Source: an uncultured Enterobacterales bacterium
GTDB taxonomy: Bacteria > Myxococcota_A > UBA796 > UBA2385
Reading direction: 5' to 3'
NCBI GenBank assembly: GCA_964502005.1
Contig: CAZCUX010000001.1
Coordinates: 196,653-260,652 of the forward strand
DNA: 64,000 bases
The notes beneath the pieces were generated by a model. That model was given only the letters and a program-made list of their open reading frames with translations, was not told the origin of the DNA and ran no database searches. Below are positions 16,394-38,674 of the stretch, one piece after another. Position 1 is the stretch's first letter. Every line of letters starts with the position of its first letter. The position numbers and the translations under genes are program-made.

Positions 16394-17212
16394 TCAGTCT
16401 TCGGGCTGTTCGGGCACATCGAGGCAGAGCCGCTTGAACTCATCGCGGAGGCGTACCTTCAACGCAAAGTCGGGGCGCTCGCTGAGAATCTTCTCGAGAC
16501 CGAGCAAGAGCTGCCGATCGATATCGCGCGGAATCGAAGGGTCTCCCCGGCGGAGCGACTGCACCATGGCGTCAATTTCGTTTTGTGGCGTTGACTGGAA
16601 CACGGCGAGGGCGACCGCTGCTGGAGCATCCTCGTCGTCGGCGACTTCGATATCCAGCGTCGGGAGATTGGCGCGCTCGTCTTGTACCGCGAGGAACTGC
16701 TCGATGAAGCCGCGGGTCCACTCATGGGTCACGTCTGCTTCTTGCAACATCCAGTCCGATTGCGACTGGCGCGCGGGCTCGATTCCGACCAAATGCACGC
16801 GCACGCCAAAGTCTTGCGCGTGTTGCACTCCGACGCGGAGGTCTTCATCGCCGGTGAGCAGCACGGCTGAAGCCATGGCGCGATTGCGCGACAAGTTGAT
16901 CATGTCGGTCACGAGCAAGGAGTCAACGCCCTTTTGCTGTCCTTGCAGGTTGACCAAGCCCAATCGAACTTTCACATCTTGGGAAAATGCGAGGGCCCGG
17001 TGCTGGACGGTAGGGCCGTCGGAAGTGCCGTCGTACCAATAAATCCGAAGCAGGGGGAGGCCCGTGACGGAAAACGCAAACGAACGGATGGCGTCCACCG
17101 CTGCATCAATGTCCAAGTGCAACATACCGCGGGGCCGCTTCTGCCCACATAGGGCGGTGCTTCCTTGGGCAAACAAATAGCCGGCGTCAACAAATACAGC
17201 GCTCCTGTCCAT
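16394..17212 (-). CDS. NYN-domain (LabA/PIN-like) putative ribonuclease with an acidic C-terminal extension
   Basis: AVFVDAGYL...RIYWYDG...QKGVDSLLVTDM...AVLLTGDEDLRVGVQHAQDFGVRVHLVG matches the NYN/LabA acidic-residue pattern. The roughly 100-aa C-terminal part is unassigned. Confidence 0.75.
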   Translation of the reverse strand: MDRSAVFVDAGYLFAQGSTALCGQKRPRGMLHLDIDAAVDAIRSFAFSVTGLPLLRIYWYDGTSDGPTVQHRALAFSQDVKVRLGLVNLQGQQKGVDSLLVTDMINLSRNRAMASAVLLTGDEDLRVGVQHAQDFGVRVHLVGIEPARQSQSDWMLQEADVTHEWTRGFIEQFLAVQDERANLPTLDIEVADDEDAPAAVALAVFQSTPQNEIDAMVQSLRRGDPSIPRDIDRQLLLGLEKILSERPDFALKVRLRDEFKRLCLDVPEQPED

Positions 17213-21733: not shown

Positions 21734-22372
21734 TCAATAACGATAGGAAAAGGCTGCTATCTCAAAGTCGAATGCCTTGGAGACCAAGAGGCGGGTCGTG
21801 TTGTCCATCCAGTCGCGGTAGTGTATTTGACTTGTGTTGGATTGGTTGGAGCGTGTGAGGGGAAGGGGAGGCAACCCAATGCGGGTGCAAACTTGGGCGA
21901 AGTCAGCGTCGATGGTCTCCATACGGCCGATGAAGTCTACTATCGGTCGAAAGTTGCGGTCGAACAACAGCCATCGGCTCCGGTCTTTCACATAGCGTCC
22001 GTGGGGAAAGCCGGGCTCTCCTACAAAATAGACGGTTCGCACCCACGCATTGAAGTGTTCGGGACTGGGGGGGCCGCTGATGCGCTTCATCTTGATTTGG
22101 TAGAAATAGCGCGACAGTGTAAGGGCATATGGATTGCGGGTGAAGCCGAATGAAAACCAACCATGGCTGGGTACCTGGAAGTGGCGCCGTATTTCGTCGA
22201 GGGATGCAAACTCCTCGATGACACACGGCTTCCCATCGACCCGGTTGGTCCAGACTTGGGTGAGGATGTCGCCGGGCGCGCATAGAGGCAGCAACGTGTC
22301 TTGGATGCTTGTGCCTGCGGTTTTGCGTGTTTTCACAAACACAAAACGATGTGCAAACGAGACGATGGCCAT
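21734..22372 (-). CDS. Sulfotransferase family 2-like protein
   Basis: The N-terminal PAPS 5'-phosphosulfate loop is HRFVFVKTRKTAGTSIQ. FTRNPY is also present. ATG 22372 overlaps the upstream stop by 1 nt. Confidence 0.65.
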   Translation of the reverse strand: MAIVSFAHRFVFVKTRKTAGTSIQDTLLPLCAPGDILTQVWTNRVDGKPCVIEEFASLDEIRRHFQVPSHGWFSFGFTRNPYALTLSRYFYQIKMKRISGPPSPEHFNAWVRTVYFVGEPGFPHGRYVKDRSRWLLFDRNFRPIVDFIGRMETIDADFAQVCTRIGLPPLPLTRSNQSNTSQIHYRDWMDNTTRLLVSKAFDFEIAAFSYRY

Positions 22373-23079
22373 CAGTTGGCACTCGCCCATGTTCTGCTCT
22401 TGTTGTGGAGCGCCAAGCGAAAAAGGCCACTATCGCGGTACAACCAGTGAAAGTTGAGGGTGCGTATGCGGAGCCGAACACCCATTTGTTCCGCCTTCCA
22501 AATGGCGAAGTTGAGGCTGAGCTGGTCGCGGCGGGACCCCTTTCGGTACTCGTCGGCCCAAAGTTGGCAAACAAGGTGCAACTGTTCGCTTCGGTTGTTC
22601 TTCACCATCATGCGGGTGCCGAATAGGCCGTACTGACGGGGGAAGCCGACTGCGGCATACCGCTCCATCTGTTGGATGACAATGCTTGGGTCGTCGAGCT
22701 TTGCATGGAGGACGGCGATGGCCTCATCGTAGATACAGCTTCTTGTGGGATGCGTAGCGATGAGCAGGTCGGTATCCGGTGTCCAATGTTGCGAGAGAAA
22801 TTGGTCGAGGTTGGTGTTGATGTGCGTTGAGCCGTCGATGGTGACGCAGATGTCGCAGTCGGCGGGTACGTGCCGATAGTGTTCGATTTTGGTCAATGAT
22901 GCGCGGCGTTTGGGGTCGGTTTCCCTCGGCGGCTCGTGGGCGACAACCTGGGGACGCCACACATTTGCTTGCATGGGCGCGTCGGTGCGGCACACATAAG
23001 ACCAGTTGGGTGTGACGACAGATGGGTCTCGAAGTTGGTCGTAGTCATTGAAAATATAGGTCAAAACGGTCTTTTTCAC
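22372..23079 (-). CDS. DUF616-type putative glycosyltransferase
   Basis: GTG start at 23079. YIFNDYD..., the conserved RDQLSLNFAIW block and the overall length fit DUF616/TOD1-like proteins. Confidence 0.6.
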   Translation of the reverse strand: MKKTVLTYIFNDYDQLRDPSVVTPNWSYVCRTDAPMQANVWRPQVVAHEPPRETDPKRRASLTKIEHYRHVPADCDICVTIDGSTHINTNLDQFLSQHWTPDTDLLIATHPTRSCIYDEAIAVLHAKLDDPSIVIQQMERYAAVGFPRQYGLFGTRMMVKNNRSEQLHLVCQLWADEYRKGSRRDQLSLNFAIWKAEQMGVRLRIRTLNFHWLYRDSGLFRLALHNKSRTWASAN

Positions 23080-23515: not shown

Positions 23516-24601
23516 TTATGGGCGCAACTGTTGAAAGCAGCGCAAAAAGTTAGCGCCGAGCACCTTTTGAATGCGCTTTTCCGTCCAGCGTCGTTGGAGC
23601 ATTCGCTCGACCAAAACAGGGTAATGGTCGGCGCCTGCGAGGTCGGGGGGCGGAATGATAGCACCGTCAAAATCACTGCCAATGCTGACGTGGTCTTCGC
23701 CCACAACCCGCAAGACGTGCTCCATATGGTCCAACACAAGGTCTGCGGAGTCGGTTTTGCCCCAAGGCTTCAAGAACAAGGACGAGAAGATAATGCCGAT
23801 GGTGCCACCGGTGTCGGCGATTGCGCGTAGCTGCGCGTCGTCGAGGTTGCGCCAATGCTGGCGAACGCCATCGACGCCCGTATGGGTGGCCAGGAGGGGC
23901 TTGCTTCGGTCGTGAACCCGCACGGCATCCCAAAATGCGGTGGGGTGAATATGGGCGAGGTCGACGAAAATGTTGGCGTGGTCGAGCTGTTGAACCAAGT
24001 CTTGGCCCCGAAGCGTGAGGCCCTTTTGGAAGCGCAGGAGGTGGTGGGGGCTCGACGTTGGTCCGTAGATGCTATTGGTGAGGTGGACCAACGTGACGCG
24101 CGCGATGAGATTGTCTGGGATAGACCGCACGCCGTCGGGTGCAGCTTCGAGGGCATTGCCTCCCTGAATGACGGGAATGACGGCATGTGCGCCGCGTGCG
24201 CGTACTTCGTTCCACTCGGAAAACGTGCGCGCGATGGCCAGGGCGCCATTGGTCTCTTGGACCATATGTTGGAGTCCCTTGAGGTTTTGGCGAAACAAGC
24301 GCCAACGCTCGGCAGGGCTCCGAAAGGGGTTGGTCGTAATGGACCACATGCCGCCGGTGAGGCCGCCTTCCCGCAGGCGTGGAATGTCGACGTGTCCGAA
24401 AAAGCGACGGCCAAGGGGACCGCCGCGGTGACGACTTGTCACCCGATACCCCCAAAGGCGCGGAGGAATGAAGGTGTCGAGGTGGAGGTCGATGACTTCG
24501 CACGACCGGGTGAGCGAGACGGCGGCCGTCGAGACACCGAGGCGGCGCGCGAGGGCGGCAGCGTCGGTGCGGAGGGGCACCGGAAGAGGAGGGACCGACA
24601 T
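23516..24601 (-). CDS. Membrane dipeptidase family (peptidase M19) protein
   Basis: Blocks present: VIDLHLDT, VIQGGNALE, VTLVHLTNS, VDLAHI, LATHTG and SIGSDFDG. Confidence 0.8.
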   Translation of the reverse strand: MSVPPLPVPLRTDAAALARRLGVSTAAVSLTRSCEVIDLHLDTFIPPRLWGYRVTSRHRGGPLGRRFFGHVDIPRLREGGLTGGMWSITTNPFRSPAERWRLFRQNLKGLQHMVQETNGALAIARTFSEWNEVRARGAHAVIPVIQGGNALEAAPDGVRSIPDNLIARVTLVHLTNSIYGPTSSPHHLLRFQKGLTLRGQDLVQQLDHANIFVDLAHIHPTAFWDAVRVHDRSKPLLATHTGVDGVRQHWRNLDDAQLRAIADTGGTIGIIFSSLFLKPWGKTDSADLVLDHMEHVLRVVGEDHVSIGSDFDGAIIPPPDLAGADHYPVLVERMLQRRWTEKRIQKVLGANFLRCFQQLRP

Positions 24602-27733: not shown

Positions 27734-27826
27734 AACCCAACGGCACGCGGGCCCGCTGGCGGATACAAGGGTCGGAGAACGGCCGGGGAATGGTTGCCCG
27801 GCACCGCTCCCTCGTTGGAGGCCCCG

Positions 27827-28744
27827 ATGCCGACTCCGAACCCTGGTGGTGGCCGCATTGTCGCCGGCGCCATCGCTCCTCACCCGCCCCATTTGGTCTA
27901 CGCGGAAAATCCTCCCCAAAATGAACCGCGGGCGGAGTGCGGGTGGGAGAACCTTCGGTGGGGCTATGAGCGCCTTCGTCGCAATCTCAGCGCCCTGGAC
28001 ATCGACGTTATCGTGGTGCATTCCCCCCACTGGAAGACGTCCCAGGGCCACCATTTGTTGGCGGCGCCGCATTTCAAGTCCTTGAGCGTCGACCCCATCT
28101 TCCCGAACTTGTTTCGGTACCACTACGACCTCGCGGTGGACGTCGCGCTCGCAGAAGCCATCGCCGAAGAAGGCGGCCAAGCGGGCCTCACGATGCAGCT
28201 CATGCGGAATCCCGACTTCCGCGTGGACTATGGCACCATTACGTCCTGCCATCTCACGCGCCCCCAGTGGGACATCCCGATTGTCGCGATTTCCTCCAAT
28301 CGGGTCTATTTCGATTATAACAATGATGTGGGCGACCGCCAAATGGTTGCGCTTGGACGCGCAACGCGGCGCGCAGTCGAGCGATTGGGGCGCCGAGCGT
28401 TGTTGTTGGCAAGCAATTCTTTGTCACACCGCCACTTCACGGACGAGTCCGAGCTTCCCGAGGACATGTCCAAAGAGCGTATCTACCATCACGGCCAGTA
28501 CATCTGGGACATGCACGTGCTCGACTTGATGAAGAAGGGCCGCTGTCGGCAATTGATGGCGGAGATGCCTGACTTCATCGAGCACGCGACCAGCGAAGCC
28601 AAAGACGGCAGCTTGTCTTGGTTGATGGGGGCTCTGGAGTTCCCCGACTATCCCGCGGAAGTACACGCTTACGGGACCGTCATTGGTACCGGAAATGCCG
28701 TGGTGGAGTGGCAGCCCCCCGTTGTCGGGATGGAGGCACGATGA
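27827..28744 (+). CDS. LigB-type extradiol ring-cleavage dioxygenase, catalytic (AmnB/beta-like) subunit
   Basis: GGAGG lies 6 nt upstream of ATG 27827. Blocks: GAIAPHPPHLV, IVVHSPHW and SNSLSHRH, which carry the His residues expected for the LigB-family Fe site and catalytic base. Confidence 0.75.
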   Translation: MPTPNPGGGRIVAGAIAPHPPHLVYAENPPQNEPRAECGWENLRWGYERLRRNLSALDIDVIVVHSPHWKTSQGHHLLAAPHFKSLSVDPIFPNLFRYHYDLAVDVALAEAIAEEGGQAGLTMQLMRNPDFRVDYGTITSCHLTRPQWDIPIVAISSNRVYFDYNNDVGDRQMVALGRATRRAVERLGRRALLLASNSLSHRHFTDESELPEDMSKERIYHHGQYIWDMHVLDLMKKGRCRQLMAEMPDFIEHATSEAKDGSLSWLMGALEFPDYPAEVHAYGTVIGTGNAVVEWQPPVVGMEAR

Positions 28745-30177
28745 CTGTCGAGCTTGCCCTGATTGTACCTCGGATGCCGCATCCGCTGCTGTGTCCCGAT
28801 GCGAGCCCCGGCTACCGCGCCCTGGCCGACGCCTACGCCGAAGCGCGCCGGCGCATCGCCGACCTCAAACCCGACGTGCTCGTGCTGTATAGCGCCGGTT
28901 GGCCTTGTGTGGTGGGGCACCAGATTCAGGCCGACCCCAACCCCACCTGGGTCCACGTCGACCAGGACTTTCACGCGCTCGGGAGCATTCCGTATTCCTT
29001 GCGCATGGACCCCCAGTTCGGCGCGGATTGGTGCCAATCTGCGACAGAACGTGGCCTGCATTGCCGAACCGTCGCCTACCGCGGCTTTCCCATCGACACC
29101 GGTACGGTCACCGCGTTGAAGCTGCTCGACCCCGACTCCCGTATTCCGGCCAGCGTGGTGTCATGCAATATGTATGCCGACCGTGCCGAGACGGTCGTTT
29201 TGGGCAAGGCGGCGGCCGATGTGCTGTCGCAGCGGGGCATACGCGCGGTCGCGGTCGCCGTGACCAACCTGAGCCATCGGCTCCTCCCGGTCCCGGTGCC
29301 TCCGTCCGAAGACCGCTTTGCGTCGATGAAAGACGACGAGTGGGTGCGGAAGCTGCTCGAAATCTTGGGCGAAGGGCGCCTCGAAGACGTGAGCCAGCTT
29401 GCGCGAACGTTTACCGCCCAAGCCCACGCCGATTCCAAGCTCAAGGCCATTTGGTGGCTCGCGGCGGTCTCGGGTGCCCACAACCGGTACCAAGGCGAAG
29501 TTCTCGCGTATGCGCCGGTGCAAGGAACCGGCTGTGCTGTGGTGGCCTTGACGCCCGACCGCACTGGCGCGGCGGGGCTTGAGTTCGATGAAGACGACGT
29601 AGACGTGTTCCGCGGCGACCGAAACGTGCTGGCCGCGGCACCGGGCCAAACCGTCGAAGTGGCACCCGCGCCCGTCGCGAAGCCCGCGCCCAAAGCGGCC
29701 GCGCCCGTTGCGCGCGCCGGTCGGGTGGATGTTGCCGCGGACCAAGCGCCGAAGCCCGTCGGCGCGTACCCCCACGCCCGCCGTGTCGGCGACCTGTTGT
29801 TCTTGTCCGGGGTCGGCCCGCGGCAGCCCGGCACCGACGCCATTCCGGGCGGTCCCGTGCGCGACGCCGCCGGTCAACCGGTCGATTACGACATCGAGGC
29901 GCAGACCCGCGCCGTCATCGAAAACGTGCGCCGCATCTTGGAAGCCTCGGGGTCCTCCCTTGACCGCGTGCTGGACGTCACCACGTTTCTGGTCAACATG
30001 GACCGCGACTTTGCAGGCTACAACAAGGTCTACGGTGAGATGCTCGGCAAGGTCGGGCCCACCCGCACCACGCTCGCGATTCGCGCGTTGCCGACCCCCA
30101 TCGCGATCGAGCTAAAGGTGGTCGCCGCTGCTGGAGATGTCGATATGGCGCGGCTTACCGGTGGACAACGTGGCTGA
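28741..30177 (+). CDS. Fusion protein: LigB-type non-catalytic (AmnA/alpha-like) subunit plus C-terminal RidA/YjgF-family deaminase
   Basis: ATG 28741 overlaps the upstream stop (ATGA). The N-domain parallels the previous gene, but the HSPHW position reads YSAGW. An Ala/Pro linker (APAPVAKPAPKAAAPVA) follows. The RidA blocks are PKPVGAYPHARRVGDLLFLSGVG, IEAQTRAVIENVRRIL and GPTRTTLAIRALPTPIAIELKVVA. Confidence 0.75.
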   Translation: MTVELALIVPRMPHPLLCPDASPGYRALADAYAEARRRIADLKPDVLVLYSAGWPCVVGHQIQADPNPTWVHVDQDFHALGSIPYSLRMDPQFGADWCQSATERGLHCRTVAYRGFPIDTGTVTALKLLDPDSRIPASVVSCNMYADRAETVVLGKAAADVLSQRGIRAVAVAVTNLSHRLLPVPVPPSEDRFASMKDDEWVRKLLEILGEGRLEDVSQLARTFTAQAHADSKLKAIWWLAAVSGAHNRYQGEVLAYAPVQGTGCAVVALTPDRTGAAGLEFDEDDVDVFRGDRNVLAAAPGQTVEVAPAPVAKPAPKAAAPVARAGRVDVAADQAPKPVGAYPHARRVGDLLFLSGVGPRQPGTDAIPGGPVRDAAGQPVDYDIEAQTRAVIENVRRILEASGSSLDRVLDVTTFLVNMDRDFAGYNKVYGEMLGKVGPTRTTLAIRALPTPIAIELKVVAAAGDVDMARLTGGQRG

Positions 30178-30838
30178 CCGTCGCCTCTACGACATCACGC
30201 CGCGCATCAGCCCGCGGTTGGCGGTGTTCCCTGGCGACACAGCCTTTTCGCGCGCCGTGCTGCTTTCGATGGCCGACGGCGCCAACATCGACCTCTCGTC
30301 GATGACGACAACATTGCACCTGGGCGCCCACGCCGATGCACCGTCGCACTACACCCCCCATGGCGTCAGCATCGCCGACCGCGACCCCCGGCGCTATCTC
30401 GGTCGCTGCCAGGTGGTGTCGGTCCCCGATACCCGTGGCCGAAGGGTCACGGTCGACGACCTTCGCGAGCCCGTGATGGCGCCGCGCGTGCTGTTTTTTA
30501 CGCACTCGTTTCCCGCGCCGGAGCAGTGGAATGGCGACTTCGCTTCTTTGTCGCCAGAGCTGATTGCGCATCTTCACGACGATTGCGGTGTGTCGCTCGT
30601 GGGCATCGATACGCCGAGCGTTGACCCCGAGACCGACCGGGACCTGCCCTCCCACGCTGCTCTCGCGGCGCGCGATATGGCGGTGCTCGAAGGTTTGGTG
30701 CTGCACGATGTCCCGCCGGGCATCTACACCCTGATTGCGCTGCCCTTGCCCATCGAAGGCGGCGACGCGAGCCCGCTCCGCGCGGTGTTGCTCGAAGGCG
30801 ATTGGGGCCTCGATGCCCTCGCGCTCGCCGGGTCTTGA
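30137..30838 (+). CDS. kynB: Kynurenine formamidase (cyclase-family arylformamidase)
   Basis: LYDITPRISPRLAVFPGDTAF...TTLHLGAHADAPSHY contains the HxGxHxDxPxH metal motif, and GIDTPSVD is present. The start is uncertain: ATG 30137 overlaps the upstream gene by 41 nt, and GTG 30170 overlaps it by 8 nt. Confidence 0.8.
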   Translation: MSIWRGLPVDNVADRRLYDITPRISPRLAVFPGDTAFSRAVLLSMADGANIDLSSMTTTLHLGAHADAPSHYTPHGVSIADRDPRRYLGRCQVVSVPDTRGRRVTVDDLREPVMAPRVLFFTHSFPAPEQWNGDFASLSPELIAHLHDDCGVSLVGIDTPSVDPETDRDLPSHAALAARDMAVLEGLVLHDVPPGIYTLIALPLPIEGGDASPLRAVLLEGDWGLDALALAGS

Positions 30839-31134: not shown

Positions 31135-31506
31135 TCACTTCAGCAGTCGCCCGTTCTCGTCGGCCAACACCTGACCCCCATAGATGGGCCAGGGGTACTT
31201 GCTCAGCCACTTCGGCATCGTCCGCAAAATCTCGGGTACGATGTCGTTATCCATGAACTTATCGAGTTTGAAGGTCACGCCGAGAGCCTCGGAACGCTCC
31301 GACTCCTTCTTGAACGCGGCGTCCACCAGTTCTTGGTGTTCCCGGTAGAAGTTATCGGAGTACACGTCAAGCTCCCGACGCATCTCATCCGTTGTACCGA
31401 GAGGTGTCCGGATGGACACCTCTTCGCGGACCAAGAGGTGAAAAACCTTCCTGAAGGTCGTTTCTGCCTTCGCTGCCTTCTTTTTGCCCTTCTTCTTTGT
31501 CTTCAT
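31135..31506 (-). CDS. Small hypothetical protein (123 aa) with a poly-Lys N-terminus
   Basis: Start ATG 31506 (MKTKKKGKKKAAKAETTF...). Codon usage is coding-like. The start overlaps the stop of the upstream small ORF (ATGA at 31503-31506). Confidence 0.65.
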   Translation of the reverse strand: MKTKKKGKKKAAKAETTFRKVFHLLVREEVSIRTPLGTTDEMRRELDVYSDNFYREHQELVDAAFKKESERSEALGVTFKLDKFMDNDIVPEILRTMPKWLSKYPWPIYGGQVLADENGRLLK

Positions 31507-31685
31507 GACACACTCTCCCCATCGGAGACCCACGCGGCCTCAGCCTCCCGGGCGCAGCGGACGGCCGGGGACGCCCCGCGCTTGGCGAAGCGGGACCTCC
31601 TGCGGCCCGCGCCGCCGTTGAACGTGTATTCCTGGGCGTCGACGCCCTGGAGGCCTTTCTGGGTGGCCCGGTTGCGGTCGCGCAT
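31503..31685 (-). CDS. Small basic hypothetical protein (60 aa)
   Basis: AAGGAG lies 6 nt upstream of ATG 31685. Third-position G+C is very high. The ORF is coupled by ATGA to the downstream 123-aa gene. Confidence 0.6.
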   Translation of the reverse strand: MRDRNRATQKGLQGVDAQEYTFNGGAGRRRSRFAKRGASPAVRCAREAEAAWVSDGESVS

Positions 31686-31897
31686 CGGCAACTCCTTCGG
31701 TTAGCGGCGGGGCGGCAGGCTAACCGCCCCCTCACACTCTCATTACGGGGAGGGGGGCGGAGAAGTATACGTTCCGGTGGCGGGAGTGGGCCTTTCCAGC
31801 AGCACGCGGGGCATTCACCAAGGCGCGCTTCGCACCTCGGCGCACGGCGAGGAGGCGTCCGACCATCGCCGGACGCCCTGGGACATAAGCCGGAAGC

Positions 31898-32716
31898 CTA
31901 GCGCCCTTGGAGGCGGTTCACTTCGCGGGCAATGCGTGCGTCTTTGTCGCTCGAAAGCTGCGCCAGCTCGGGCAACGTCGCGGCGCGTGCGGCGTCGAGG
32001 TGCTGGAGGGTCCGCAGCGCCCGGAACCGAACGTCGGCGTCGGGGTCGGCCAAGAGCGCGCGGATTGCGTCGAACGCACCGGTAATGCCTGCATAGCCGA
32101 TGCTGCGTGCCGCCTCTGCGCGCACGGCGGCGCTCTCGTCGTGCAAGGACGGGAACACGAGGTCGGCAAGTGCAGCGCCTTGCTTGTGGTTGCCGACGAC
32201 GCGAATGGCGGCCAGCCGAACGTCTTCGTCGTTGTCGCGTACGGCAAACGTCACGGCTTCCCGCGCGATGTCGACAGGCGCATCGCGCAGCACTTCGACC
32301 ATCATTCGCCGCACGAGGGCGTCTTCTTCGAGCTGCGCCATTCCGGCGACGGCCTCGGTCCAATCTCCGCCGGTTCGCGCCAGCGCGCCCAACAAGCCGA
32401 CGCGGGCTTCGGGGGCGTCTTGGCCGGACGCGATGCGCACGATGAGCGCACCCGCAGCTTCGGGAACGCGCCAATCGGGGTTGGTGAAGAGGGGTTGCCC
32501 GTTCCGGCTTGGCAAGGGGCCGTCGGTCGCGATGGCGTCGGCCAGACCCGGCGCGCCGGAAAGCGAGAGCTCTTCGGCGCTTTCGAGGGCGCGCTGGGCC
32601 CAGGCGGCATCAACGGACGTGAGGGGCGTCGACAGGCCGGCGAGTGCGGAGGGTGCGTAAAACGCGACCGCTGCGACGAACATCCGACCCAAAGAAAGAG
32701 AGGTGAAATCGCGCAT
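31898..32716 (-). CDS. HEAT-repeat protein with N-terminal signal-like segment
   Basis: There are repeated helical units with D-x-D/E-VR motifs: NDEDVRLAAIRVVG, DESAAVRAEAARSIG, DPDADVRFRALRTL and DKDARIAREV. The start lies 3 nt after the PAD-like gene stop. Confidence 0.7.
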   Translation of the reverse strand: MRDFTSLSLGRMFVAAVAFYAPSALAGLSTPLTSVDAAWAQRALESAEELSLSGAPGLADAIATDGPLPSRNGQPLFTNPDWRVPEAAGALIVRIASGQDAPEARVGLLGALARTGGDWTEAVAGMAQLEEDALVRRMMVEVLRDAPVDIAREAVTFAVRDNDEDVRLAAIRVVGNHKQGAALADLVFPSLHDESAAVRAEAARSIGYAGITGAFDAIRALLADPDADVRFRALRTLQHLDAARAATLPELAQLSSDKDARIAREVNRLQGR

Positions 32717-32719
32717 GGG

Positions 32720-34390
32720 TCAGTCCTCCAACAAATGACGGGCGTTGTCCCACCAGCCACCCACGGGGGTGCGCCGGGTGTTGCTGCCGCAGTGAACCTC
32801 GCCCCACATCAGGTGGTACGAGTCGAAATCGTCGAGCCAATGGGGCGTGACGTTCGACGGCAACATCGCTTCAAACTCGATGACGAAGGGGTCGGACGAC
32901 ACCGATGCGCTCGACCCGCGCAAGAAGGGGTCGGGGATAAACAAGTCTGCCGAGGAGTGGTCGTCCCAGGTGTTGACCTGCATGTTGACGGTGCCCGTGA
33001 TGAGCGAAAGGGCCACGCCACCGCACTCGCTGCTGCGCTCGAACACTGCGGGAACGCGCACGATGTCGCCTTCATCGAGACCGAGGGCCGCCTTGAAGCG
33101 GTCGATGTTCGGCTCGATGTTTTCGTCCATCAGGTCGCGGTTGTAGGACCACAAGGGCCCGTCGTCGACCATCTCGCCGATATTGCTGAAACCGTGCCCG
33201 TATTCGTACCGGGGCAGGTAGGTGGAGGGGTCGAGGGACTCCAAGAAGGTACGGCCAAGGTCGATGTCAGCGACGTAGAGGCGGAAGCCTTTGGGGGCGC
33301 TGGGGTCAGGCAAGAAGGTCGAGAACTCGTCGACGTGGCCGACGCACAACCAGCCAATGTCGAGGGTGAAGGGCGCCTGTACCTTTTGCTCCGCCAAAAA
33401 CTCTTGCATCCCGGCGGTCATCGCATAACGACCGGAGTCGCCGTAATATGCGCGGCCAAAGGGGTATTCGACGCCATCAACGGTGACGGGGGGGCTGACC
33501 TCCAGGTTGCCGAAGCTATCTTGGGAGGTCGGACGGCCGGTTCCCCAGGTCCAGACGCCGGTGTCGGGGCCCCACATGACCTCTTCGGGGACGATGTCGA
33601 GGTAGCGGTCGCCGCCCGAGCGAATGCTGTCGATGACGAACTGCATCTCGTAGCCGGGAGCGGTGAGGGTGCCGTACTCCAGCTCGTCTTGAATCCAGAC
33701 ATCGTAGCCGACGGTGCGCCCGTTGACGGTGCCAAAGTCGCCGCCGAGAATGTCTTGGAAGCCATCGATGAACGCTTCGTTTCCGTAGCGCCCGGTGCCG
33801 GTGTCGACGGCGACGGCCCACTGCGCCTCTTGGAGGTGGTGGTTCAGAATCAGCGGTGCCGAGAGCAAGCCAATGCTGTGGGTGTCGAGCGTCGCGCCGT
33901 CTGCGCCAATGTGTTCGAGCGTGAGCTCCGCGGTCGACATCGGCAGCTTGAACTCAACGGCGATGGTGGTGGGGTCCACCGAAGACGAGAGGTCGACAGT
34001 AAGGGTGCTGTCGTCAAGGGCGACCTCGCCGCCAACCCACACGCGTACTTCGTCGATGTCGCCGTCGAGAGTCAAGCGCACAATCTCGCCCTCGCCGAGC
34101 ATCCCGAATGCCTCGGCGTCCCAGCCGAGGGGGACGTGCTCGCCGTCGTCGGGCGAGAGGTCTTCCCAGTCGTGCTGTGCGTTTTCGTCGTCGTCATCGA
34201 GGTTCGCGACGCCCAACACTTCGTCGCCCAACGTTGAGAACAACGTTACAGGCTCCGCGGTGGTCTCGGAGGTGTTGCCCGTACTGGACCCCCCCTCTTC
34301 TTTGGTGTTGCCATTGCAGGCAGCAAAAAGAACAGACGCGAGCCCCAGCGCAATCGCTGGTCCCAGGCGTCCAGGTTGGAAATCCGGCAT
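32720..34390 (-). CDS. Protein-arginine deiminase (PAD) family lipoprotein
   Basis: The lipobox is LGLASVLFAAC. PAD catalytic-domain blocks are DSFGNLEVSPPVTVDGVEYPFGR, VQAPFTLDIGWLCVGHVDEF, KGFRLYVA and the C-terminal YHLMWGEVHCGSNTRRTPVGGWW. Confidence 0.8.
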   Translation of the reverse strand: MPDFQPGRLGPAIALGLASVLFAACNGNTKEEGGSSTGNTSETTAEPVTLFSTLGDEVLGVANLDDDDENAQHDWEDLSPDDGEHVPLGWDAEAFGMLGEGEIVRLTLDGDIDEVRVWVGGEVALDDSTLTVDLSSSVDPTTIAVEFKLPMSTAELTLEHIGADGATLDTHSIGLLSAPLILNHHLQEAQWAVAVDTGTGRYGNEAFIDGFQDILGGDFGTVNGRTVGYDVWIQDELEYGTLTAPGYEMQFVIDSIRSGGDRYLDIVPEEVMWGPDTGVWTWGTGRPTSQDSFGNLEVSPPVTVDGVEYPFGRAYYGDSGRYAMTAGMQEFLAEQKVQAPFTLDIGWLCVGHVDEFSTFLPDPSAPKGFRLYVADIDLGRTFLESLDPSTYLPRYEYGHGFSNIGEMVDDGPLWSYNRDLMDENIEPNIDRFKAALGLDEGDIVRVPAVFERSSECGGVALSLITGTVNMQVNTWDDHSSADLFIPDPFLRGSSASVSSDPFVIEFEAMLPSNVTPHWLDDFDSYHLMWGEVHCGSNTRRTPVGGWWDNARHLLED

Positions 34391-34480
34391 GTCAACCTCA
34401 CGTTCGCAGGCTCGAACCGTGTCCTGTGTGGAATAGCCGATTGCGAGCGGAGTCGGCTACCCTTTCCTCGTTTTGCCTGT

Positions 34481-35674
34481 TTACAAACGGGGACGGCCTC
34501 GAATTCCGAAGTCGTAAAAATCGACATCCACGACCGGGGGCACCAGCTCCCGCGGCAACAGCAGCGTGCGAACGCTCCACAGGTCGGCGAAGATGCGGTG
34601 GCGGGTGGTGCGGTCGAGATAGTCCACGCCGCTTGAGCCTCCGGTGCCCACGCGCCGGCCAATGACGCGCTCGACCATCCGGGCGTGGCGCGTTCGGAAC
34701 AACACAAGCTGTTCTTCGACTTCGACGACTGTATCCAACAATAGCCGAGGCCATGCGAGCAAGGGCAACGAGCGGTGGCTCTCGATGAACAGCAACGCGG
34801 CGCGAATCCGTCGGCGTCGCGCACGGGCGGCGGTTATGTCGGCTCCGGCGGGAAGGTTGGACTCATCGAGGTCTTCGGCATTGAGAAACTGGCGTGCGGT
34901 GATGCGCGATTGGGCGAAGCGAACCTCGACCTCTTCGGCGGCGGTCAAGCCGGTGGCGACCAAGCGCTCGGTTTGGCGCTGGTAATGCACATCCAGAGCT
35001 TGCTCGTATTCATCGAGAAATGCGTCGACCACGTCGTTGTCATTGGCATCACCCGGAGACGACCCATTGATGGGCGTGCGGTACAGCCAATCGTGGAGGC
35101 CTGCGCGAATGGTGTGGCCTTGCTGTGCATCCGCGGTGGCCTTCGACAGCCGCTCCCAGGCCAATGCGCCTGTTGGCGAATGTTGGGCGAGTTCGCGGAT
35201 ATGGTCGAGCGCATCGGTCTTCCCGTAGGTTTCCCGGTGGTCGGGCTGGAGACCAAGGACGATCTCCAGCTCGCGCATCTGAAAGCTCTGAAACCCACTC
35301 GCGGGCATCAGCTTTTCGCGGAAGCCCAAAAAGTCCTGGGGTGTGAGCGTCTCAATGATGTGAAACTGCTCGACCGCGAGGCGAAGAATTTGCCCCACAC
35401 GGCGCAAGTGGTGGACCACATGGGGAATGGTCGCTTCATCGACGGGGCCTTGGAGAAACAACGAGACCGTCTCGCGTAGCTCCCGCAGCACCATCTTGAA
35501 CCACAGCTCATAGGCTTGATGGACGATGATGAACAGCAGCTCATCGGGAACCATCGACGCTTCGTCGCCCTCTAGGCCTCCTTGGAGCGCAAGAAGTTTG
35601 TCGAGGGAGAGGTAGTCCCAATAGTTCGGGACACGGGGCGTAGGCGCCGAAGGGGAGGGGGGAAGGGTCGTCAC
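34481..35674 (-). CDS. kynA: Tryptophan 2,3-dioxygenase
   Basis: GGAGG lies upstream of GTG 35674. YWDYLSLDKLLALQ...DELLFIIVHQAYELWFKMVLRELR is the TDO signature helix. The C-terminal GGSSGVDYL block carries the heme-proximal region. The 134 codons upstream in the track ORF are not protein-like. Confidence 0.8.
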   Translation of the reverse strand: MTTLPPSPSAPTPRVPNYWDYLSLDKLLALQGGLEGDEASMVPDELLFIIVHQAYELWFKMVLRELRETVSLFLQGPVDEATIPHVVHHLRRVGQILRLAVEQFHIIETLTPQDFLGFREKLMPASGFQSFQMRELEIVLGLQPDHRETYGKTDALDHIRELAQHSPTGALAWERLSKATADAQQGHTIRAGLHDWLYRTPINGSSPGDANDNDVVDAFLDEYEQALDVHYQRQTERLVATGLTAAEEVEVRFAQSRITARQFLNAEDLDESNLPAGADITAARARRRRIRAALLFIESHRSLPLLAWPRLLLDTVVEVEEQLVLFRTRHARMVERVIGRRVGTGGSSGVDYLDRTTRHRIFADLWSVRTLLLPRELVPPVVDVDFYDFGIRGRPRL

Positions 35675-35807: not shown

Positions 35808-36917
35808 ATGATTCGTCCGGTCCGTATGGTGGCGCTGGCTTCGGTTGTGGGTGTTTGGGGTGGTTGTGACAAAGCGTCTACGGACCCTGCCGTGCCCAAA
35901 GCAGCGGTAGAGAAGGCGTTTGCAGACGCAAACCCCGGCGGTCGCTCGTCCGTGGAGCTGGGCGGTCGAAATGTGTGGCTCGAAGCGGGGATGTTTGTCC
36001 CCGGATGTCTGGAGTCCAAAGACCTCGCATTCAACGACATTCCCGCCGAGCGTCCTTCGGGATCTGCGCCGCGCATTTCGCCGACGTATGCGAACCAGCG
36101 CTACATCACGGGCACAAGCGAGCGCGGCGTTTGTGTGGTGTTGGGCGCCGACCCCCAAGCCACGGTCACCAACGTGGTGTACGACGGTGCCGAATGGGTC
36201 GTCGATTACACTGTCGCCGTCTCGGAGCCAACGCCTTGGTTTGAATGTTTGATGGACCGCATCAAAAACAACCAAGCCACGGTCAAAATCGCCGAGGACG
36301 GCACCGCGAGCGTGCAGCAGGACCTCACCTTGTTGCGGGGCGGCTGCTCCCTCGACCTGCCCAAAGATGTCGAGCGACGGGGGGGTGACCGCCCGACCGC
36401 GAAGCCTCCAAAGCCGCCCACCGCCGAGGCCGTCGCCGCGCTCGCACGCGACTTCGACAAAGCGCTCTTTGAGGCAGACTTTGTGGCCGCGCGAAAGTTG
36501 GTTCGCTGTGTCAACTTGTTTGAATCGCCCATGTGGGATGCGTGCGCCCTTTCGGAGCTGATTGCGGTGGGGCCGTCGTTTTCGGGCGAGCCGCGTGGAC
36601 GCGACGGCACCCCTTGGATGGAATACGTCGTGCGCGGCCCGGATGAGTTTGCGCGGATTGTGCCGGAACGTGGTGACCCTACGCTTTTTCACGTCATGAT
36701 GAAGCACAAGCGGAGCGGCGCCGACCGCAGCTTTACGGTGCAGTGGGCAGACGGAAAGTGGCATTTGTTTGGCGTGGTGCAGCTCAAGGCCGAAGGGCTC
36801 ACGGCGATGCGGTTTGTCAACGACCTGCACGACCGCAAGAAGATGGACATTCTTGAGCGACGCATCAAGGGCGACAAGATTGACCATCTCGGCAATCCCA
36901 TCGAAGAAGAGGAATAA
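35808..36917 (+). CDS. Lipoprotein, function unknown
   Basis: AGGAGG lies upstream of ATG 35808. The lipobox is MIRPVRMVALASVVGVWGGC. Confidence 0.7.
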   Translation: MIRPVRMVALASVVGVWGGCDKASTDPAVPKAAVEKAFADANPGGRSSVELGGRNVWLEAGMFVPGCLESKDLAFNDIPAERPSGSAPRISPTYANQRYITGTSERGVCVVLGADPQATVTNVVYDGAEWVVDYTVAVSEPTPWFECLMDRIKNNQATVKIAEDGTASVQQDLTLLRGGCSLDLPKDVERRGGDRPTAKPPKPPTAEAVAALARDFDKALFEADFVAARKLVRCVNLFESPMWDACALSELIAVGPSFSGEPRGRDGTPWMEYVVRGPDEFARIVPERGDPTLFHVMMKHKRSGADRSFTVQWADGKWHLFGVVQLKAEGLTAMRFVNDLHDRKKMDILERRIKGDKIDHLGNPIEEEE

Positions 36918-36922
36918 CGAAC

Positions 36923-38674
36923 GTGAAGGTGACCGTCGAGGGACCGCTGGTGGACGCGGATGCCGCGTGGCGCTTGATTTCCGAGACGGGCTTGTTGTTG
37001 CGCCTCGCGGGCGCGCCGCCGGTACGCATTCGCCTCGCCGAAGACGGCGATGGTGAGGTGATTCCCAGCGGTACGATGCTCGGCCCTGCCGGGCTGCGGC
37101 ACGCATTCGAAGACGCGGGCCTCTCGTGGGTCCGCGGGCAGCACTTGCACCTGGAGCGGCGGATTCAAGGTCCGCTGCTGCGGAGCATTCGCCTGACCGC
37201 GACCCTCACCCCCGCAGACGGCGGAGTGCAGCCGACCCTCACGTTGGAGGTCGAGCCGCGCATCGGCGCGAGCAGCGGCTTGGTTTCCCTCTACACCCGC
37301 GGCGTCGTAAGCGGCTGGAACCGCGAGCTGGCGGCACTTCCGGGGCCGGGACGGATGGGGGAGCCCCGCGTCCGGCGCGCGTTGGACATCACGACACTCG
37401 CGGCCTTGTCGCGGTGGAGCGAGCGCGGCGCAGGAACGGCCCTGCGGGCGCGGGTGGAGCGCTGGATGCGCCAAGCGCCGCTCCGGCAGCTTCGACGCTT
37501 GTCCCCCCTGGGATTGGCCGAAGGTTGGCAAGAGGACGGTGAGCTCGACCGCGCATCGGCGGTGTTGGACGAGTTGGTAGAAGGCATCGCGGCGGGCGCC
37601 CTGGACCTCCATTGGGCGGTGGTTTGCCCGCGCTGTGCCGCGCCTGTGCAGCAAGTCGAGGCCCTCAATCGTCTACCGGAGCAAGCGCGATGCCCGTGGT
37701 GTGGGGTCACGAGCCCGGTAGACCTTGTCTCGACCGTAGAAGCGGTGCTCGCGGCGCCAGGCTGGCTTGGGTCGGGCGAGCCGTCTTGCCACTCGTTGGC
37801 CGCCGCATCGCCGGAAACAGTCGCGGCGGTCTTGTTGTCGCCCCGCAGCGCCCATTCTTTTGCGCTTTCACTCCCGCCAGGGGAGTATCGCCTCGTTGCC
37901 GGTGCGGGTGCCGGACGCCTCGATGGTGTGCTGCAGGTCACCGAGGGCGGCCCTGCTGCGGCCCAATGGACCCCCGGACAGGGTCCGGTGGCTGTGGGGA
38001 CAGGTGTGGTGTCGCTGCTGGTGCAAAACCCCACGGGACGCCGCTTGTTCGTGCGAATGCTCGAAACCTCCGGTTTGCGACCGCGCACACCCGCGTTTGC
38101 GTTGTTGTGCCGACCGCGGTTTCAAGCCCGGCTCGGCGGCCAAGCGCCGGCGCCCGATGTGCTCCTCGCCGTCGGCGATGCCACCGTTATGTTTACTGAC
38201 CTTACCAAGACCGCGCAGTACTTTTATCGCCATGGCGACCGCGCGGGCATTCACCATATTCGGCGTCGTTTGGACATCATCGTGCGGGGCGGCCAATCGG
38301 CCGGCGGCATTCGCGTGAAGACATTGGGCGACGGCGTGCTGATGTTGTTTTCTACGCCTCTGGCCGCAGTGCAGGCGGCGCTCGCGATACTCGCAGGACC
38401 GGCGGCGGGGAAGGGCGATGAGCCCCATTTGCGCGTGGGCATTGCCCGTGGCGCGCTTCTGACCGAACACACCGACGCGGCGGGCTTTGATTGCTCGGGT
38501 GCGACCGTGTCGGAAGCAGCGCGTGCGGTGTACGGCGCGGCGCCCAATCAGCTCAGGATGACGGCCAGCGTCGGAGACCACCCTGCGGTTCGGTCATGGT
38601 TGGCCCATGTGGAAAAGGAAGTATTGACCGACAAAGATGGCCTTCGGACTTTGTGCGTCGAGGCCATTTATTAG
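36923..38674 (+). CDS. Class III adenylate/guanylate cyclase with a large N-terminal region containing a Cys4 zinc-ribbon-like motif
   Basis: GTG start at 36923, 6 nt after the upstream stop. The Cys motifs are CPRC...(20 aa)...CPWC. The C-terminal catalytic blocks are TVMFTDLTKT and IRVKTLGDGVLMLF. Confidence 0.7.
   Translation: MKVTVEGPLVDADAAWRLISETGLLLRLAGAPPVRIRLAEDGDGEVIPSGTMLGPAGLRHAFEDAGLSWVRGQHLHLERRIQGPLLRSIRLTATLTPADGGVQPTLTLEVEPRIGASSGLVSLYTRGVVSGWNRELAALPGPGRMGEPRVRRALDITTLAALSRWSERGAGTALRARVERWMRQAPLRQLRRLSPLGLAEGWQEDGELDRASAVLDELVEGIAAGALDLHWAVVCPRCAAPVQQVEALNRLPEQARCPWCGVTSPVDLVSTVEAVLAAPGWLGSGEPSCHSLAAASPETVAAVLLSPRSAHSFALSLPPGEYRLVAGAGAGRLDGVLQVTEGGPAAAQWTPGQGPVAVGTGVVSLLVQNPTGRRLFVRMLETSGLRPRTPAFALLCRPRFQARLGGQAPAPDVLLAVGDATVMFTDLTKTAQYFYRHGDRAGIHHIRRRLDIIVRGGQSAGGIRVKTLGDGVLMLFSTPLAAVQAALAILAGPAAGKGDEPHLRVGIARGALLTEHTDAAGFDCSGATVSEAARAVYGAAPNQLRMTASVGDHPAVRSWLAHVEKEVLTDKDGLRTLCVEAIY

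What the first reader, a model, noticed from the sequence alone, without database searches (positions are those of the whole stretch)
31898..35674. kynA - PAD - HEAT-repeat genes form a tight same-strand cluster
All three genes lie on the minus strand. Tryptophan 2,3-dioxygenase ends at 34481 and the PAD-like gene starts at 34390 (90-nt gap). The HEAT-repeat gene starts 3 nt after the PAD stop. I do not recognise a pathway that links a Trp-oxidising heme enzyme to an exported Arg-deiminating enzyme and a signal-bearing HEAT scaffold. The arrangement could be a protein- or peptide-modification module rather than plain NAD or kynurenine catabolism.
Basis: inference. Interest (0 to 1): 0.55.

Follow-up and report, generated by a model that had tools for sequence, protein, structure and literature searches.

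The report
Exported arginine deiminase with HEAT partner
The three genes are really there, but only the arginine-deiminase lipoprotein and its HEAT-repeat partner form a conserved two-gene unit across Myxococcota; the tryptophan dioxygenase is a neighbour in one lineage only and belongs with the kynurenine genes on the other side.

Summary
On the minus strand lie kynA/TDO (34481..35674), a PAD lipoprotein (32720..34390) and a signal-peptide HEAT protein (31898..32716), with 90-nt and 3-nt spacers.

In 79 PAD loci from other genomes, a HEAT gene follows PAD on the same strand in 77 of 78 assessable cases. It usually overlaps the PAD stop by 4 nt or lies within 3 nt of it. TDO lies upstream in only 5 of those loci, and all TDO-linked PADs fall in one PAD subclade.

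Sister genomes share the backbone lipoprotein <-> kynA ... kynB–LigB/RidA–LigB–GGDEF. There the slot after kynA holds an S9 peptidase lipoprotein instead of PAD–HEAT. Two relatives have kynA–PAD–HEAT–S9, which indicates that the cassette was inserted into this slot.

TDO has no signal peptide, whereas PAD and HEAT are both exported. kynA therefore belongs with kynB and the LigB/RidA genes.

PAD–HEAT is an autonomous, translationally coupled, extracytoplasmic cassette. PAD keeps the catalytic Asp/His/Asp/Cys residues, and its model superposes on human PAD4. HEAT is a protein-binding solenoid with an invariant Arg in a predicted β-hairpin loop. Its role as regulator, adaptor, inhibitor or substrate is inferred, not shown. 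Interest is modest.

The parts
34481..35674 (-). kynA: tryptophan 2,3-dioxygenase, long eukaryote-like form, 397 aa, no signal peptide. A neighbour of the PAD-HEAT cassette, not a part of it.
   Evidence: Pfam PF03301, 1.8e-54. Best PDB matches are Drosophila and human TDO at 1.7e-45, with 'HQAYELWF', the proximal-His region 'RTRHARMVERVIG' and 'GTGGSSG' conserved. GGAGG lies before GTG 35674. Gene call of 397 aa.
34391..34480 (-). 90-nt kynA-PAD spacer with no significant secondary structure.
   Evidence: Sequence. RNA fold -25.5 kcal/mol against a shuffle mean of -26.6, z = +0.33. No terminator or promoter hit here. The equivalent spacer ranges from about -4 to about 700 nt in relatives.
32720..34390 (-). 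PAD: peptidyl-arginine deiminase lipoprotein, 556 aa. It has a signal and lipobox (Cys25), a low-complexity tether, a PAD_M-like beta domain (about residues 50-175) and a PAD_C catalytic domain (173-547).
   Evidence: Pfam PF03068, 207 bits. phmmer to human PAD4, 2.3e-41. D235/H352/D354/C534 align to PAD4 D350/H471/D473/C645 and are invariant in 23 homologues. The AF2 model (pLDDT 86) matches hPAD4 over about 546 columns, TM 0.73.
32724..32729 (-). GGAGGA Shine-Dalgarno for the HEAT gene, embedded in the last codons of PAD (translational coupling).
   Evidence: Sequence '...ttGGAGGActgacccATG'. In relatives the PAD stop and HEAT start mostly overlap by 4 nt or lie 0-3 nt apart.
31898..32716 (-). 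HEAT partner: exported 272-aa alpha-solenoid. It has a Sec signal (about residues 1-26), a conserved N-terminal beta-hairpin 'P-S-R71-x-G-x-P-x-F', and then about 6 HEAT_2 repeats.
   Evidence: Pfam HEAT_2, 1e-13. AF2 model pLDDT 91.5, with residues 68-76 as a hairpin. Foldseek hits are alphaRep/HEAT binder scaffolds only. R71 is invariant in 19 homologues and 96% conserved in 76. Found downstream of PAD in 77 of 78 loci.
31853..31878 (-). Stable GC-rich hairpin 20 nt after the HEAT stop, with no U-tract. It is the likely 3' end of the PAD-HEAT transcription unit.
   Evidence: Sequence. Fold -31.8 kcal/mol, z = -2.29, with 3 of 200 shuffles as stable.
30137..30838 (+). kynB: arylformamidase (cyclase family), convergent with the cassette. 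A conserved partner of kynA.
   Evidence: Pfam Cyclase PF04199, 3.4e-14. NCBIfam TIGR03035, 5.9e-53, below the curated cut-off. Present in every kynA backbone examined.
27794..30177 (+). LigB-type extradiol dioxygenase pair. The second subunit (28741..30177) is fused to a RidA/YjgF deaminase domain. These genes lie upstream of kynB and are conserved with kynA and kynB.
   Evidence: Pfam LigB and Ribonuc_L-PSP. NCBIfam Rid family, 1.8e-23. Syntenic in L001, L002, L081, L083, L085 and L088-L091.
35808..36917 (+). Conserved lipoprotein of unknown function (369 aa from M45; 'VVGVWGGC' lipobox), divergent from kynA. It is part of the conserved backbone.
   Evidence: No Pfam, NCBIfam or PADLOC hit. 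Gene call of 369 aa. An orthologue sits next to kynA in all backbones.

Best explanation
The cluster is a composite of two unrelated units that are adjacent in one Myxococcota lineage.

Unit 1 is cytoplasmic tryptophan and aromatic-amine catabolism. kynA (TDO) works with the convergent kynB arylformamidase and a LigB-type ring-cleavage dioxygenase pair fused to a RidA deaminase.

Unit 2 is an autonomous, translationally coupled two-gene cassette that is conserved across Myxococcota. It encodes a membrane-tethered (lipoprotein) two-domain peptidyl-arginine deiminase and an exported HEAT-repeat solenoid.

The cassette was inserted into a variable slot just downstream of kynA. In PAD-less relatives that slot holds an S9 prolyl-oligopeptidase lipoprotein.

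Proposed mechanism (inferred, not shown): PAD is anchored in the cell envelope and converts peptidyl-Arg to citrulline on envelope or extracellular proteins or peptides. The HEAT protein is made in fixed ratio from the same mRNA and binds PAD as a dedicated partner. It could be a regulator or latency factor, a substrate adaptor, or itself the substrate through its invariant hairpin Arg71.

What is shown: gene order, co-conservation, coupling signals, conserved export signals, conserved catalytic residues and fold. What is inferred: enzymatic activity, physical PAD-HEAT interaction, substrates, and the biological role.
For: PAD-HEAT pairing
- HEAT lies immediately 3' on the same strand in 77 of 78 assessable loci.
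- The stop/start gap is mostly -4 to +3 nt, and the window has an SD inside the PAD 3' end.
- No third gene family is conserved around PAD. The next best is a Ser/Thr kinase in 15 of 80 loci at scattered positions.
- Genomes with two PAD paralogues keep a separate HEAT for each, and the HEAT identity matrix mirrors the PAD matrix.

kynA is not part of the cassette
- TDO is found in 5 of 79 loci. All TDO-linked PADs fall in a single subclade.
- Starting from TDO instead, the backbone MlaE/ABC-cyclase-lipoprotein <-> kynA ... kynB-LigB/RidA-LigB-GGDEF is conserved. The slot holds Peptidase_S9 (with MOSC, YbjN or ThrRS) in L081, L083 and L085, and PAD-HEAT in L080 and L086.
- L009 and L010 have kynA-PAD-HEAT-S9.
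- The kynA-PAD spacer varies from about -4 to about 700 nt.

Compartments
- The PAD lipobox Cys is >=90% conserved. HEAT signal peptides are conserved. The TDO N-terminus has no signal.

Enzyme competence
- The catalytic D/H/D/C residues and the Ca1 ligands Q234 and E238 are conserved.
- The model superposes on hPAD4.

HEAT as a binder
- Its only structural neighbours are alphaRep, HEAT and armadillo binder scaffolds.

Unit boundary
- A hairpin follows HEAT.
Against: - Within the window's own subclade the kynA-PAD-HEAT order is kept across substantial divergence (PAD 47-69% identity, TDO 61-75%).
- In the window and in L086 the spacing is short enough for co-transcription, and the 90-nt spacer has no terminator-like structure. 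Co-expression with kynA in this lineage is therefore possible.
- No direct evidence exists for PAD-HEAT binding, for deiminase activity, or for the side of the envelope on which PAD acts.
- The Ca2 ligand N373 and the substrate residue R374 of PAD4 are not conserved (S258 and G259 by the alignment), so regulation and specificity may differ from animal PADs.
- All loci sampled are Myxococcota-like. Pairing in other PAD-bearing phyla was not tested.
Confidence: 0.8

Rival explanations
1. One reading: kynA, PAD and HEAT are one functional module that modifies a protein or peptide by Trp oxidation plus Arg deimination on a HEAT scaffold.
For: The order is conserved in one subclade: the window, L001, L002, L007, L009, L010, L086 and L088-L090. 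Spacing is tight in the window (90 nt) and in L086 (-4 to +23 nt). The spacer has no terminator-like hairpin. Bacterial PF03068 PADs can modify peptides, as in citrulassin (bioRxiv 10.1101/2020.07.16.207027).
Against: TDO is absent from the other 74 PAD-HEAT loci. The kynA backbone exists without PAD-HEAT. The TDO is a canonical free-Trp enzyme with no signal peptide, while PAD and HEAT are exported. No precursor peptide, cyclase, or other RiPP or NRPS genes were found nearby. The spacer reaches about 600-700 nt in L001 and L009.
Confidence: 0.05
2. PAD-HEAT is an effector-immunity pair. The lipoprotein PAD is a toxin delivered to prey or competitors, for example on vesicles or by outer-membrane exchange. 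The periplasmic HEAT protein protects the producer, possibly by plugging the active site with Arg71.
For: The layout is an enzyme gene followed by a small, tightly coupled partner. Both proteins are in the envelope. Each paralogous PAD keeps its own cognate HEAT. The invariant Arg lies in a predicted beta-hairpin loop. From general knowledge, Myxococcota are predators and use lipoprotein toxins with adjacent immunity genes (the SitA/SitI system); this was not tested here.
Against: The PADs are conserved orthologues at 40-70% identity over their full length, with no polymorphic C-terminal swapping. Most genomes have one copy. No T6SS, Tra or Rhs genes recur nearby. No PADLOC or toxin-family hit was found. 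No delivery domain is recognisable.
Confidence: 0.12
3. The slot after kynA is an amino-acid and peptide scavenging neighbourhood. PAD, like the S9 peptidase, processes extracellular peptides (releasing ammonia from Arg residues) to feed catabolism that includes Trp degradation, so the linkage is loose but functional.
For: In sister genomes kynA is followed by an S9 prolyl-oligopeptidase that is also a lipoprotein. L009 and L010 carry PAD-HEAT and S9 together. An M19 dipeptidase lies at 23516..24601 in the window.
Against: PAD-HEAT occurs in dozens of unrelated contexts without kynA or S9. A dedicated HEAT partner is not expected for a bulk catabolic enzyme. No Arg, citrulline or ornithine catabolic genes or transporters were seen adjacent.
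Confidence: 0.08

Closest known systems
Two-domain bacterial/fungal PADI (PF03068) as defined by Cummings et al. 2021 (PMC8826395), and the Streptomyces PAD that makes citrulassin (bioRxiv 10.1101/2020.07.16.207027)
   Same: It has a PAD_C catalytic domain with conserved Asp/His/Asp/Cys. It has a divergent PAD_M-like beta domain and no PAD_N. The Ca2 site differs from animal PADs. 'Proteobacterial' PADs from aquatic metagenomes were already noted in those surveys.
   Different: Here the enzyme is a lipoprotein, and therefore extracytoplasmic. It is almost always followed by a translationally coupled exported HEAT protein. The cited survey described bacterial PAD neighbourhoods as 'highly diverse' and does not mention a HEAT partner. 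No substrate is known for this clade.
Human PAD4/PAD2 (PDB 1wd8, 4n2b and others)
   Same: The fold matches over about 546 aligned columns, TM 0.73. The catalytic tetrad, W347/Q346-equivalent residues and Ca1 ligands are conserved.
   Different: There is no PAD_N domain. PAD4 N373 and R374 are replaced by S258 and G259. The protein is exported and lipid-anchored rather than nuclear or cytosolic, at about 27% identity.
Porphyromonas gingivalis PPAD (PF04371)
   Same: It is a bacterial, cell-surface or secreted peptidyl-arginine deiminase acting outside the cytoplasm.
   Different: It belongs to a different family (the agmatine-deiminase-like PAD_porph), is Ca-independent, is a T9SS cargo and has no HEAT partner. 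The window protein gives no PF04371 hit.
Bacterial kynurenine pathway genes kynA/kynB(/kynU)
   Same: kynA and kynB are present and conserved together in the same neighbourhood.
   Different: They are convergent rather than in one operon, and are separated by a variable cargo slot. They associate with a LigB-type dioxygenase pair fused to RidA instead of kynU. No kynureninase or KMO was found in the stretches scanned.

Membership tests
Peptidyl-arginine deiminase, PF03068 (two-domain bacterial/fungal type) | PAD_C domain scoring above the Pfam gathering threshold | tested here: met
   207 bits against a cut-off of 25, covering profile positions 7-394 of 395.
Peptidyl-arginine deiminase, PF03068 (two-domain bacterial/fungal type) | Catalytic Cys645 plus the Asp350/His471/Asp473 equivalents | tested here: met
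   C534, D235, H352 and D354 align to the PAD4 residues and are invariant in 23 homologues.
Peptidyl-arginine deiminase, PF03068 (two-domain bacterial/fungal type) | PAD_M-like immunoglobulin domain present and PAD_N absent | tested here: met
   Pfam finds no PAD_N or PAD_M. The AF2 model has an N-terminal beta domain (residues about 57-177) and aligns to hPAD4 over about 546 columns. The protein has only about 530 mature residues.
Peptidyl-arginine deiminase, PF03068 (two-domain bacterial/fungal type) | Calcium-site ligands | tested here: inconclusive
   Of the Ca1 ligands, Q234 and E238 are conserved; E411 was not mapped. Of the Ca2 ligands, E236, D254 and S255 are conserved but N373 is replaced by S258. 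An invariant N63-x-D65-D66-D67...D74 acidic motif lies in the N-terminal domain. Metal dependence was not tested.
Peptidyl-arginine deiminase, PF03068 (two-domain bacterial/fungal type) | Deimination of peptidyl-arginine to citrulline | not testable with these tools
   This needs an enzyme assay.
Tryptophan 2,3-dioxygenase (kynA) | Trp_dioxygenase domain with the distal His, the proximal heme His and the GTGGSSG motif | tested here: met
   PF03301 at 185.9 bits against a cut-off of 34.9. The alignment to Drosophila and human TDO shows the conserved motifs. The NCBIfam equivalog TIGR03036 scores 153.6, below its 390.7 cut-off, because that model represents the short bacterial form.
HEAT_2 / PBS-lyase-type HEAT repeat proteins | Tandem HEAT_2 repeats forming an alpha-solenoid | tested here: met
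   PF13646 at 51.8 bits against a cut-off of 27.7. The model has pLDDT 91.5 and is all paired helices. Foldseek gives alphaRep/HEAT scaffolds. It is not NblB: 33 bits against a cut-off of 300.
   TDO lies next to PAD in 5 of 79 loci, against HEAT in 77 of 78. The kynA backbone exists without PAD-HEAT.
RiPP / peptide-modification gene cluster (e.g. the citrulassin type) | Precursor peptide plus core maturation enzymes (lasso cyclase, protease, RRE or the like) nearby | tested here: not met
   Neighbouring genes are LigB, RidA, a cyclase-family formamidase, GGDEF, Mla/ABC, lipoproteins and an orphan small ORF. Short precursor ORFs were not searched exhaustively.
Polymorphic toxin-immunity pair | Variable toxin module, a delivery domain or secretion-system linkage, and a cognate immunity gene downstream | tested here: inconclusive
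   A downstream coupled partner is present. No polymorphism, delivery domain or recurrent secretion genes were seen, and no PADLOC hit.

The most novel reading that the evidence does not exclude
Myxococcota carry an obligate two-component extracytoplasmic citrullination system. A lipid-anchored PAD would be controlled or targeted by a dedicated HEAT-solenoid subunit. The subunit's invariant Arg71, in a predicted beta-hairpin loop, would dock in the PAD active site as a pseudo-substrate latch, or would itself be citrullinated as a switch. This would be the first bacterial PAD with a dedicated protein partner, and the first envelope citrullination system outside Porphyromonas.
Probability: 0.15. 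Interest if true: 0.6.

Novelty: new variant of a known kind. Interest (0 to 1): 0.33.

Why it matters
For the finding as written, the result is deflationary. The kynA-PAD link is inherited gene order in one lineage, so it is not a new Trp/Arg modification pathway.

What remains is a clean and previously unremarked regularity. The Myxococcota clade of PF03068 PADs is exported as a lipoprotein and is almost invariably paired with a translationally coupled HEAT protein. Functions of bacterial PADs are nearly unknown; citrulassin maturation in Streptomyces is the only one found in the held literature.

A dedicated partner gives an experimental handle through co-purification, inhibition or activation assays, and envelope citrullinome analysis. 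Cultured strains that carry the cassette include Enhygromyxa salina DSM 15201 (L017) and Paraliomyxa miuraensis SMH-27-4 (L069).

The analysis also delineates a conserved kynA / kynB / LigB-LigB::RidA neighbourhood that may be a non-canonical route for aromatic-amine ring cleavage.

Tried and rejected
- Promoter and terminator consensus scan of 30.5-37 kb. Hit numbers were at shuffle level and none lay in the spacers, so it was uninformative for a GC-rich non-E. coli genome.
- HEAT homology search in the 5.8-billion-protein set. It returned only 17 close relatives because of the word filter. The locus-based tblastn and clustering was much more sensitive.
- Reciprocal test 'does HEAT always have a PAD?' by metagenome scan. 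The first alignment had no usable conserved stretch. The narrower one returned only 5 close relatives from the same subclade. The reciprocal question is therefore unanswered beyond that clade.
- PADLOC scan for defence-system membership. It gave only generic HEAT repeat noise, so this idea was rejected.
- NblB, deoxyhypusine-hydroxylase-like or other enzymatic HEAT proteins. NCBIfam NblB scored 33 bits against a cut-off of 300. No His/Glu metal motifs stand out among the conserved columns. Rejected.
- Search for kynU or KMO near the cluster. None was found in ORFs of 200 aa or more between 12 and 27 kb, or in the gene calls for 35.7-45.7 kb.
- Literature searches for a PAD-HEAT pairing or for Myxococcota PADs found nothing relevant in the held library.

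Full report
**1. The observation**

The window is about 62% GC.

- ORF 34481..36076 matches Pfam Trp_dioxygenase (E 1.8e-54). The functional start is the GTG at 35674. It is preceded by GGAGG and agrees with a 397-aa gene call on an identical public contig.
- ORF 32720..34390 matches Pfam PAD, PF03068 (207 bits).
- ORF 31898..32716 matches HEAT_2.

The kynA–PAD spacer is 90 nt. The PAD stop (32722..32720) is followed by 'ccc' and then the HEAT ATG at 32716. A GGAGGA sits inside the last PAD codons. PAD begins with a lipoprotein signal (…LFAAC25) and HEAT with a Sec signal (…ALA|G). The observation, including 'exported' and 'signal-bearing', is correct.

**2. Are the three genes co-conserved?**

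I built a 23-sequence PAD alignment and used it to retrieve 79 PAD loci, with up to 10 kb of flank, from one-genome-per-species contigs. Almost all are Myxococcota MAGs. Cultured representatives include Enhygromyxa salina (L017) and Paraliomyxa miuraensis (L069), and L078 is a Nannocystis sp. MAG.

- tblastn with the window's proteins found HEAT immediately 3' of PAD on the same strand in 68 loci.
- Clustering all ORFs within ±7 kb raised this to 75 of 80, counting the window.
- Of the five missing, two contigs end within 140 nt of PAD (L039, L067).
- Two others (L009, L010) carry a diverged HEAT gene overlapping the PAD stop by 4 nt.

So 77 of 78 assessable loci have the partner. Only L047 lacks it. 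The distance from the PAD stop to the HEAT start is typically −4 to +3 nt.

No other family is conserved around PAD. The next best is a Ser/Thr kinase in 15 loci at scattered positions.

TDO is upstream of PAD in only 5 of 79 loci (5 of the 69 with at least 2 kb upstream). In an NJ tree, the TDO-linked PADs (the window, L001, L002, L007, L009, L010, L086) fall in a single subclade. That subclade also contains L006, which has no TDO.

**3. The reciprocal view from kynA**

I looked up the genomic context of TDO homologues at 57–75% identity.

- The window's own contig and L086 show kynA–PAD–HEAT.
- L081/L082, L083/L084 and L085 share the same backbone: Transglut_core, Mla/ABC genes, a 362–384-aa protein of unknown function (the lipoprotein orthologue) divergent from kynA and, in most, a DUF5939/cyclase-like gene between them. 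On the far side, convergent, lie kynB (Cyclase), LigB::RidA, LigB and usually GGDEF.
- In those loci the slot after kynA holds a Peptidase_S9 gene plus MOSC, YbjN, ThrRS or hypothetical genes, and no PAD.
- That S9 peptidase is itself a lipoprotein.
- L009 and L010 have kynA–PAD–HEAT–S9. This is the intermediate expected if PAD–HEAT was inserted between kynA and S9.
- The 64-kb window has no S9 homologue.
- A Polyangiaceae TDO (L087) sits in an unrelated context.

The kynA–PAD spacer varies widely:

| Locus | kynA–PAD spacer |
|---|---|
| L086 | −4 to +23 nt |
| window | 90 nt |
| L010 | about 159 nt |
| L007 | about 182 nt |
| L002 | about 251–359 nt |
| L009 | about 597 nt |
| L001 | about 702 nt |

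. Five further metagenome relatives of the HEAT protein all belong to the same lineage, and the three that span the region keep the kynA–PAD–HEAT order.

The conclusion is that kynA's conserved partners are kynB and the LigB/RidA genes. PAD–HEAT is cargo in a variable slot.

**4. What the proteins are**

TDO is a bona fide, eukaryote-like long TDO. It has conserved distal and proximal His regions and the GTGGSSG motif, and it has no signal peptide.

PAD aligns to human PAD4 (2.3e-41).

- D235, H352, D354 and C534 align to PAD4 D350, H471, D473 and C645. Q234 and E238 align to the Ca1 ligands Q349 and E353.
- These six residues are invariant or nearly invariant among 23 homologues.
- PAD4 N373 and R374 correspond to S258 and G259. 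This fits the 'two-domain' fungal, actinobacterial and proteobacterial PADI class described by Cummings et al. (PMC8826395).
- The AF2 model (pLDDT 86) superposes on hPAD4 over about 546 columns (TM 0.73). The match includes an N-terminal β domain equivalent to PAD_M, and there is no PAD_N.
- The lipobox Cys is at least 90% conserved.

HEAT folds confidently (pLDDT 91.5) into a solenoid. Its only structural neighbours are alphaRep, HEAT and armadillo protein-binding scaffolds. It has no enzyme signature. Besides the repeat motif D-x-D-x-x-V-R, its most conserved feature is an N-terminal 'S/T-R71-x-G-x-P-x-F' element. This forms a β-hairpin with the invariant Arg in the loop.

**5. Transcription signals**

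- The 90-nt kynA–PAD spacer has no structure beyond shuffles (z = +0.33). Read-through from kynA cannot be excluded in this genome.
- Twenty nt after the HEAT stop is a stable hairpin (31853..31878; −31.8 kcal/mol, z = −2.3). It lacks a U-tract and is a plausible end of the unit.
- The consensus promoter and terminator scan was uninformative.

**6. Mechanism**

Shown:

- PAD and HEAT form a near-obligate, translationally coupled pair.
- Both proteins carry conserved export signals.
- PAD retains the catalytic apparatus and fold of active PADs.
- When the cassette is duplicated, each PAD keeps its own HEAT, and the HEAT identities mirror the PAD identities.

Inferred:

- PAD is tethered in the envelope and citrullinates envelope or extracellular proteins or peptides.
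- HEAT binds PAD as a regulator or latency factor, as an adaptor, or as the substrate.

They are ranked in the rival section. The three-gene module is contradicted by synteny and by compartment.

**7. Comparison with what is known**

Bacterial PF03068 PADs are known. One function has been demonstrated, citrulassin maturation in Streptomyces. Their neighbourhoods have been described as 'highly diverse' (bioRxiv 10.1101/2020.07.16.207027). Neither that survey nor Cummings et al. mentions a HEAT partner or a lipoprotein form. Searches of the held library found nothing on Myxococcota PADs. The PAD–HEAT cassette is therefore best called a new variant of a known kind. This statement is limited to the literature I could search.

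**8. Verdict**

The kynA linkage is lineage-specific gene order, not a pathway. The conserved object is the exported PAD–HEAT pair. Interest is modest (0.33), and would be higher only if the HEAT protein proves to be a dedicated regulator or pseudo-substrate of an envelope citrullination system.

Noticed in passing
window 27794..30838 (+), with kynA at 34481..35674 (-): A LigB-type dioxygenase pair is conserved with kynB and kynA across several Myxococcota backbones. Its second subunit is fused to a RidA/YjgF deaminase domain (28741..30177). No kynureninase or KMO lies nearby. This may be a non-canonical ring-cleavage route for 3-hydroxyanthranilate or 2-aminophenol (AmnAB/AmnD-like; that comparison is from memory and was not tested).
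   Followed up: partly
L081 9183-11904; L083 9105-11198; L085 9217-11454; L009 12616-14805; L010 10122-12377: The slot between convergent kynA and kynB is variable cargo space. In PAD-less relatives it holds an S9 prolyl-oligopeptidase that is itself a lipoprotein. L009 and L010 carry PAD-HEAT and S9 together. The 64-kb window has no S9 homologue.
   Followed up: yes
window 31135..31506 (-) and 31503..31685 (-): Two small orphan ORFs (123 aa with a Lys-rich N-terminus, and 60 aa) lie between HEAT and kynB. GC there dips to 54%, against 62-70% around it. They have no Pfam, NCBIfam or PADLOC hit and no homologue in any of the 79 loci. In close relatives (L088, L089) HEAT abuts kynB directly, so this looks like a recent small insertion.
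   Followed up: partly
window 35808..36917 (+) and 36923..38674 (+): A 369-aa lipoprotein with no recognisable domain is divergently transcribed from kynA in every backbone examined. A 583-aa DUF5939/guanylate-cyclase-like protein follows it in the window and in several backbones (L001, L002, L007, L081), but is absent from others (L083, L085, L086). Function unknown.
   Followed up: no
L023 and L054 (assembly CAZFLE01); L029 and L060 (assembly CAZCVP01): Two MAGs each carry two paralogous PAD-HEAT cassettes. The PAD and HEAT identity matrices split into the same two groups, so the cassette was duplicated as a unit and each PAD kept its own HEAT.
   Followed up: yes
window HEAT residues 67-77 (about 32486..32518, minus strand): The motif P-x-S/T-R-x-G-x-P/R-x-F, with an invariant Arg71, forms a beta-hairpin ahead of the HEAT repeats. 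It is the most conserved non-repeat feature of the partner protein and a candidate PAD docking or pseudo-substrate element. This is speculation.
   Followed up: partly
window PAD residues 63-74 (about 34169..34204, minus strand): An invariant acidic motif N-x-D-D-D-D-E...D (N63, D65, D66, D67, D74) lies at the start of the PAD_M-like domain. It is reminiscent of the N153/D155/D157/D165 calcium cluster of PAD4 (from memory). It was not mapped residue by residue.
   Followed up: no
record titles of L008, L019-L021, L023, L026, L029-L032 and others: Many TPA MAG records titled 'uncultured Enterobacterales', 'Enterobacteriaceae' or 'Rickettsiales' carry PAD-HEAT loci that nest among Myxococcota sequences. 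Those taxonomic labels look unreliable.
   Followed up: no
window 23516..24601 (-), 21734..23079 (-), 16394..17212 (-): Other genes seen while scanning upstream are an M19 membrane dipeptidase, sulfotransferase-like and TOD1/MUCI70 glycosyltransferase-like genes, and a NYN-domain protein. None is related to the finding.
   Followed up: no
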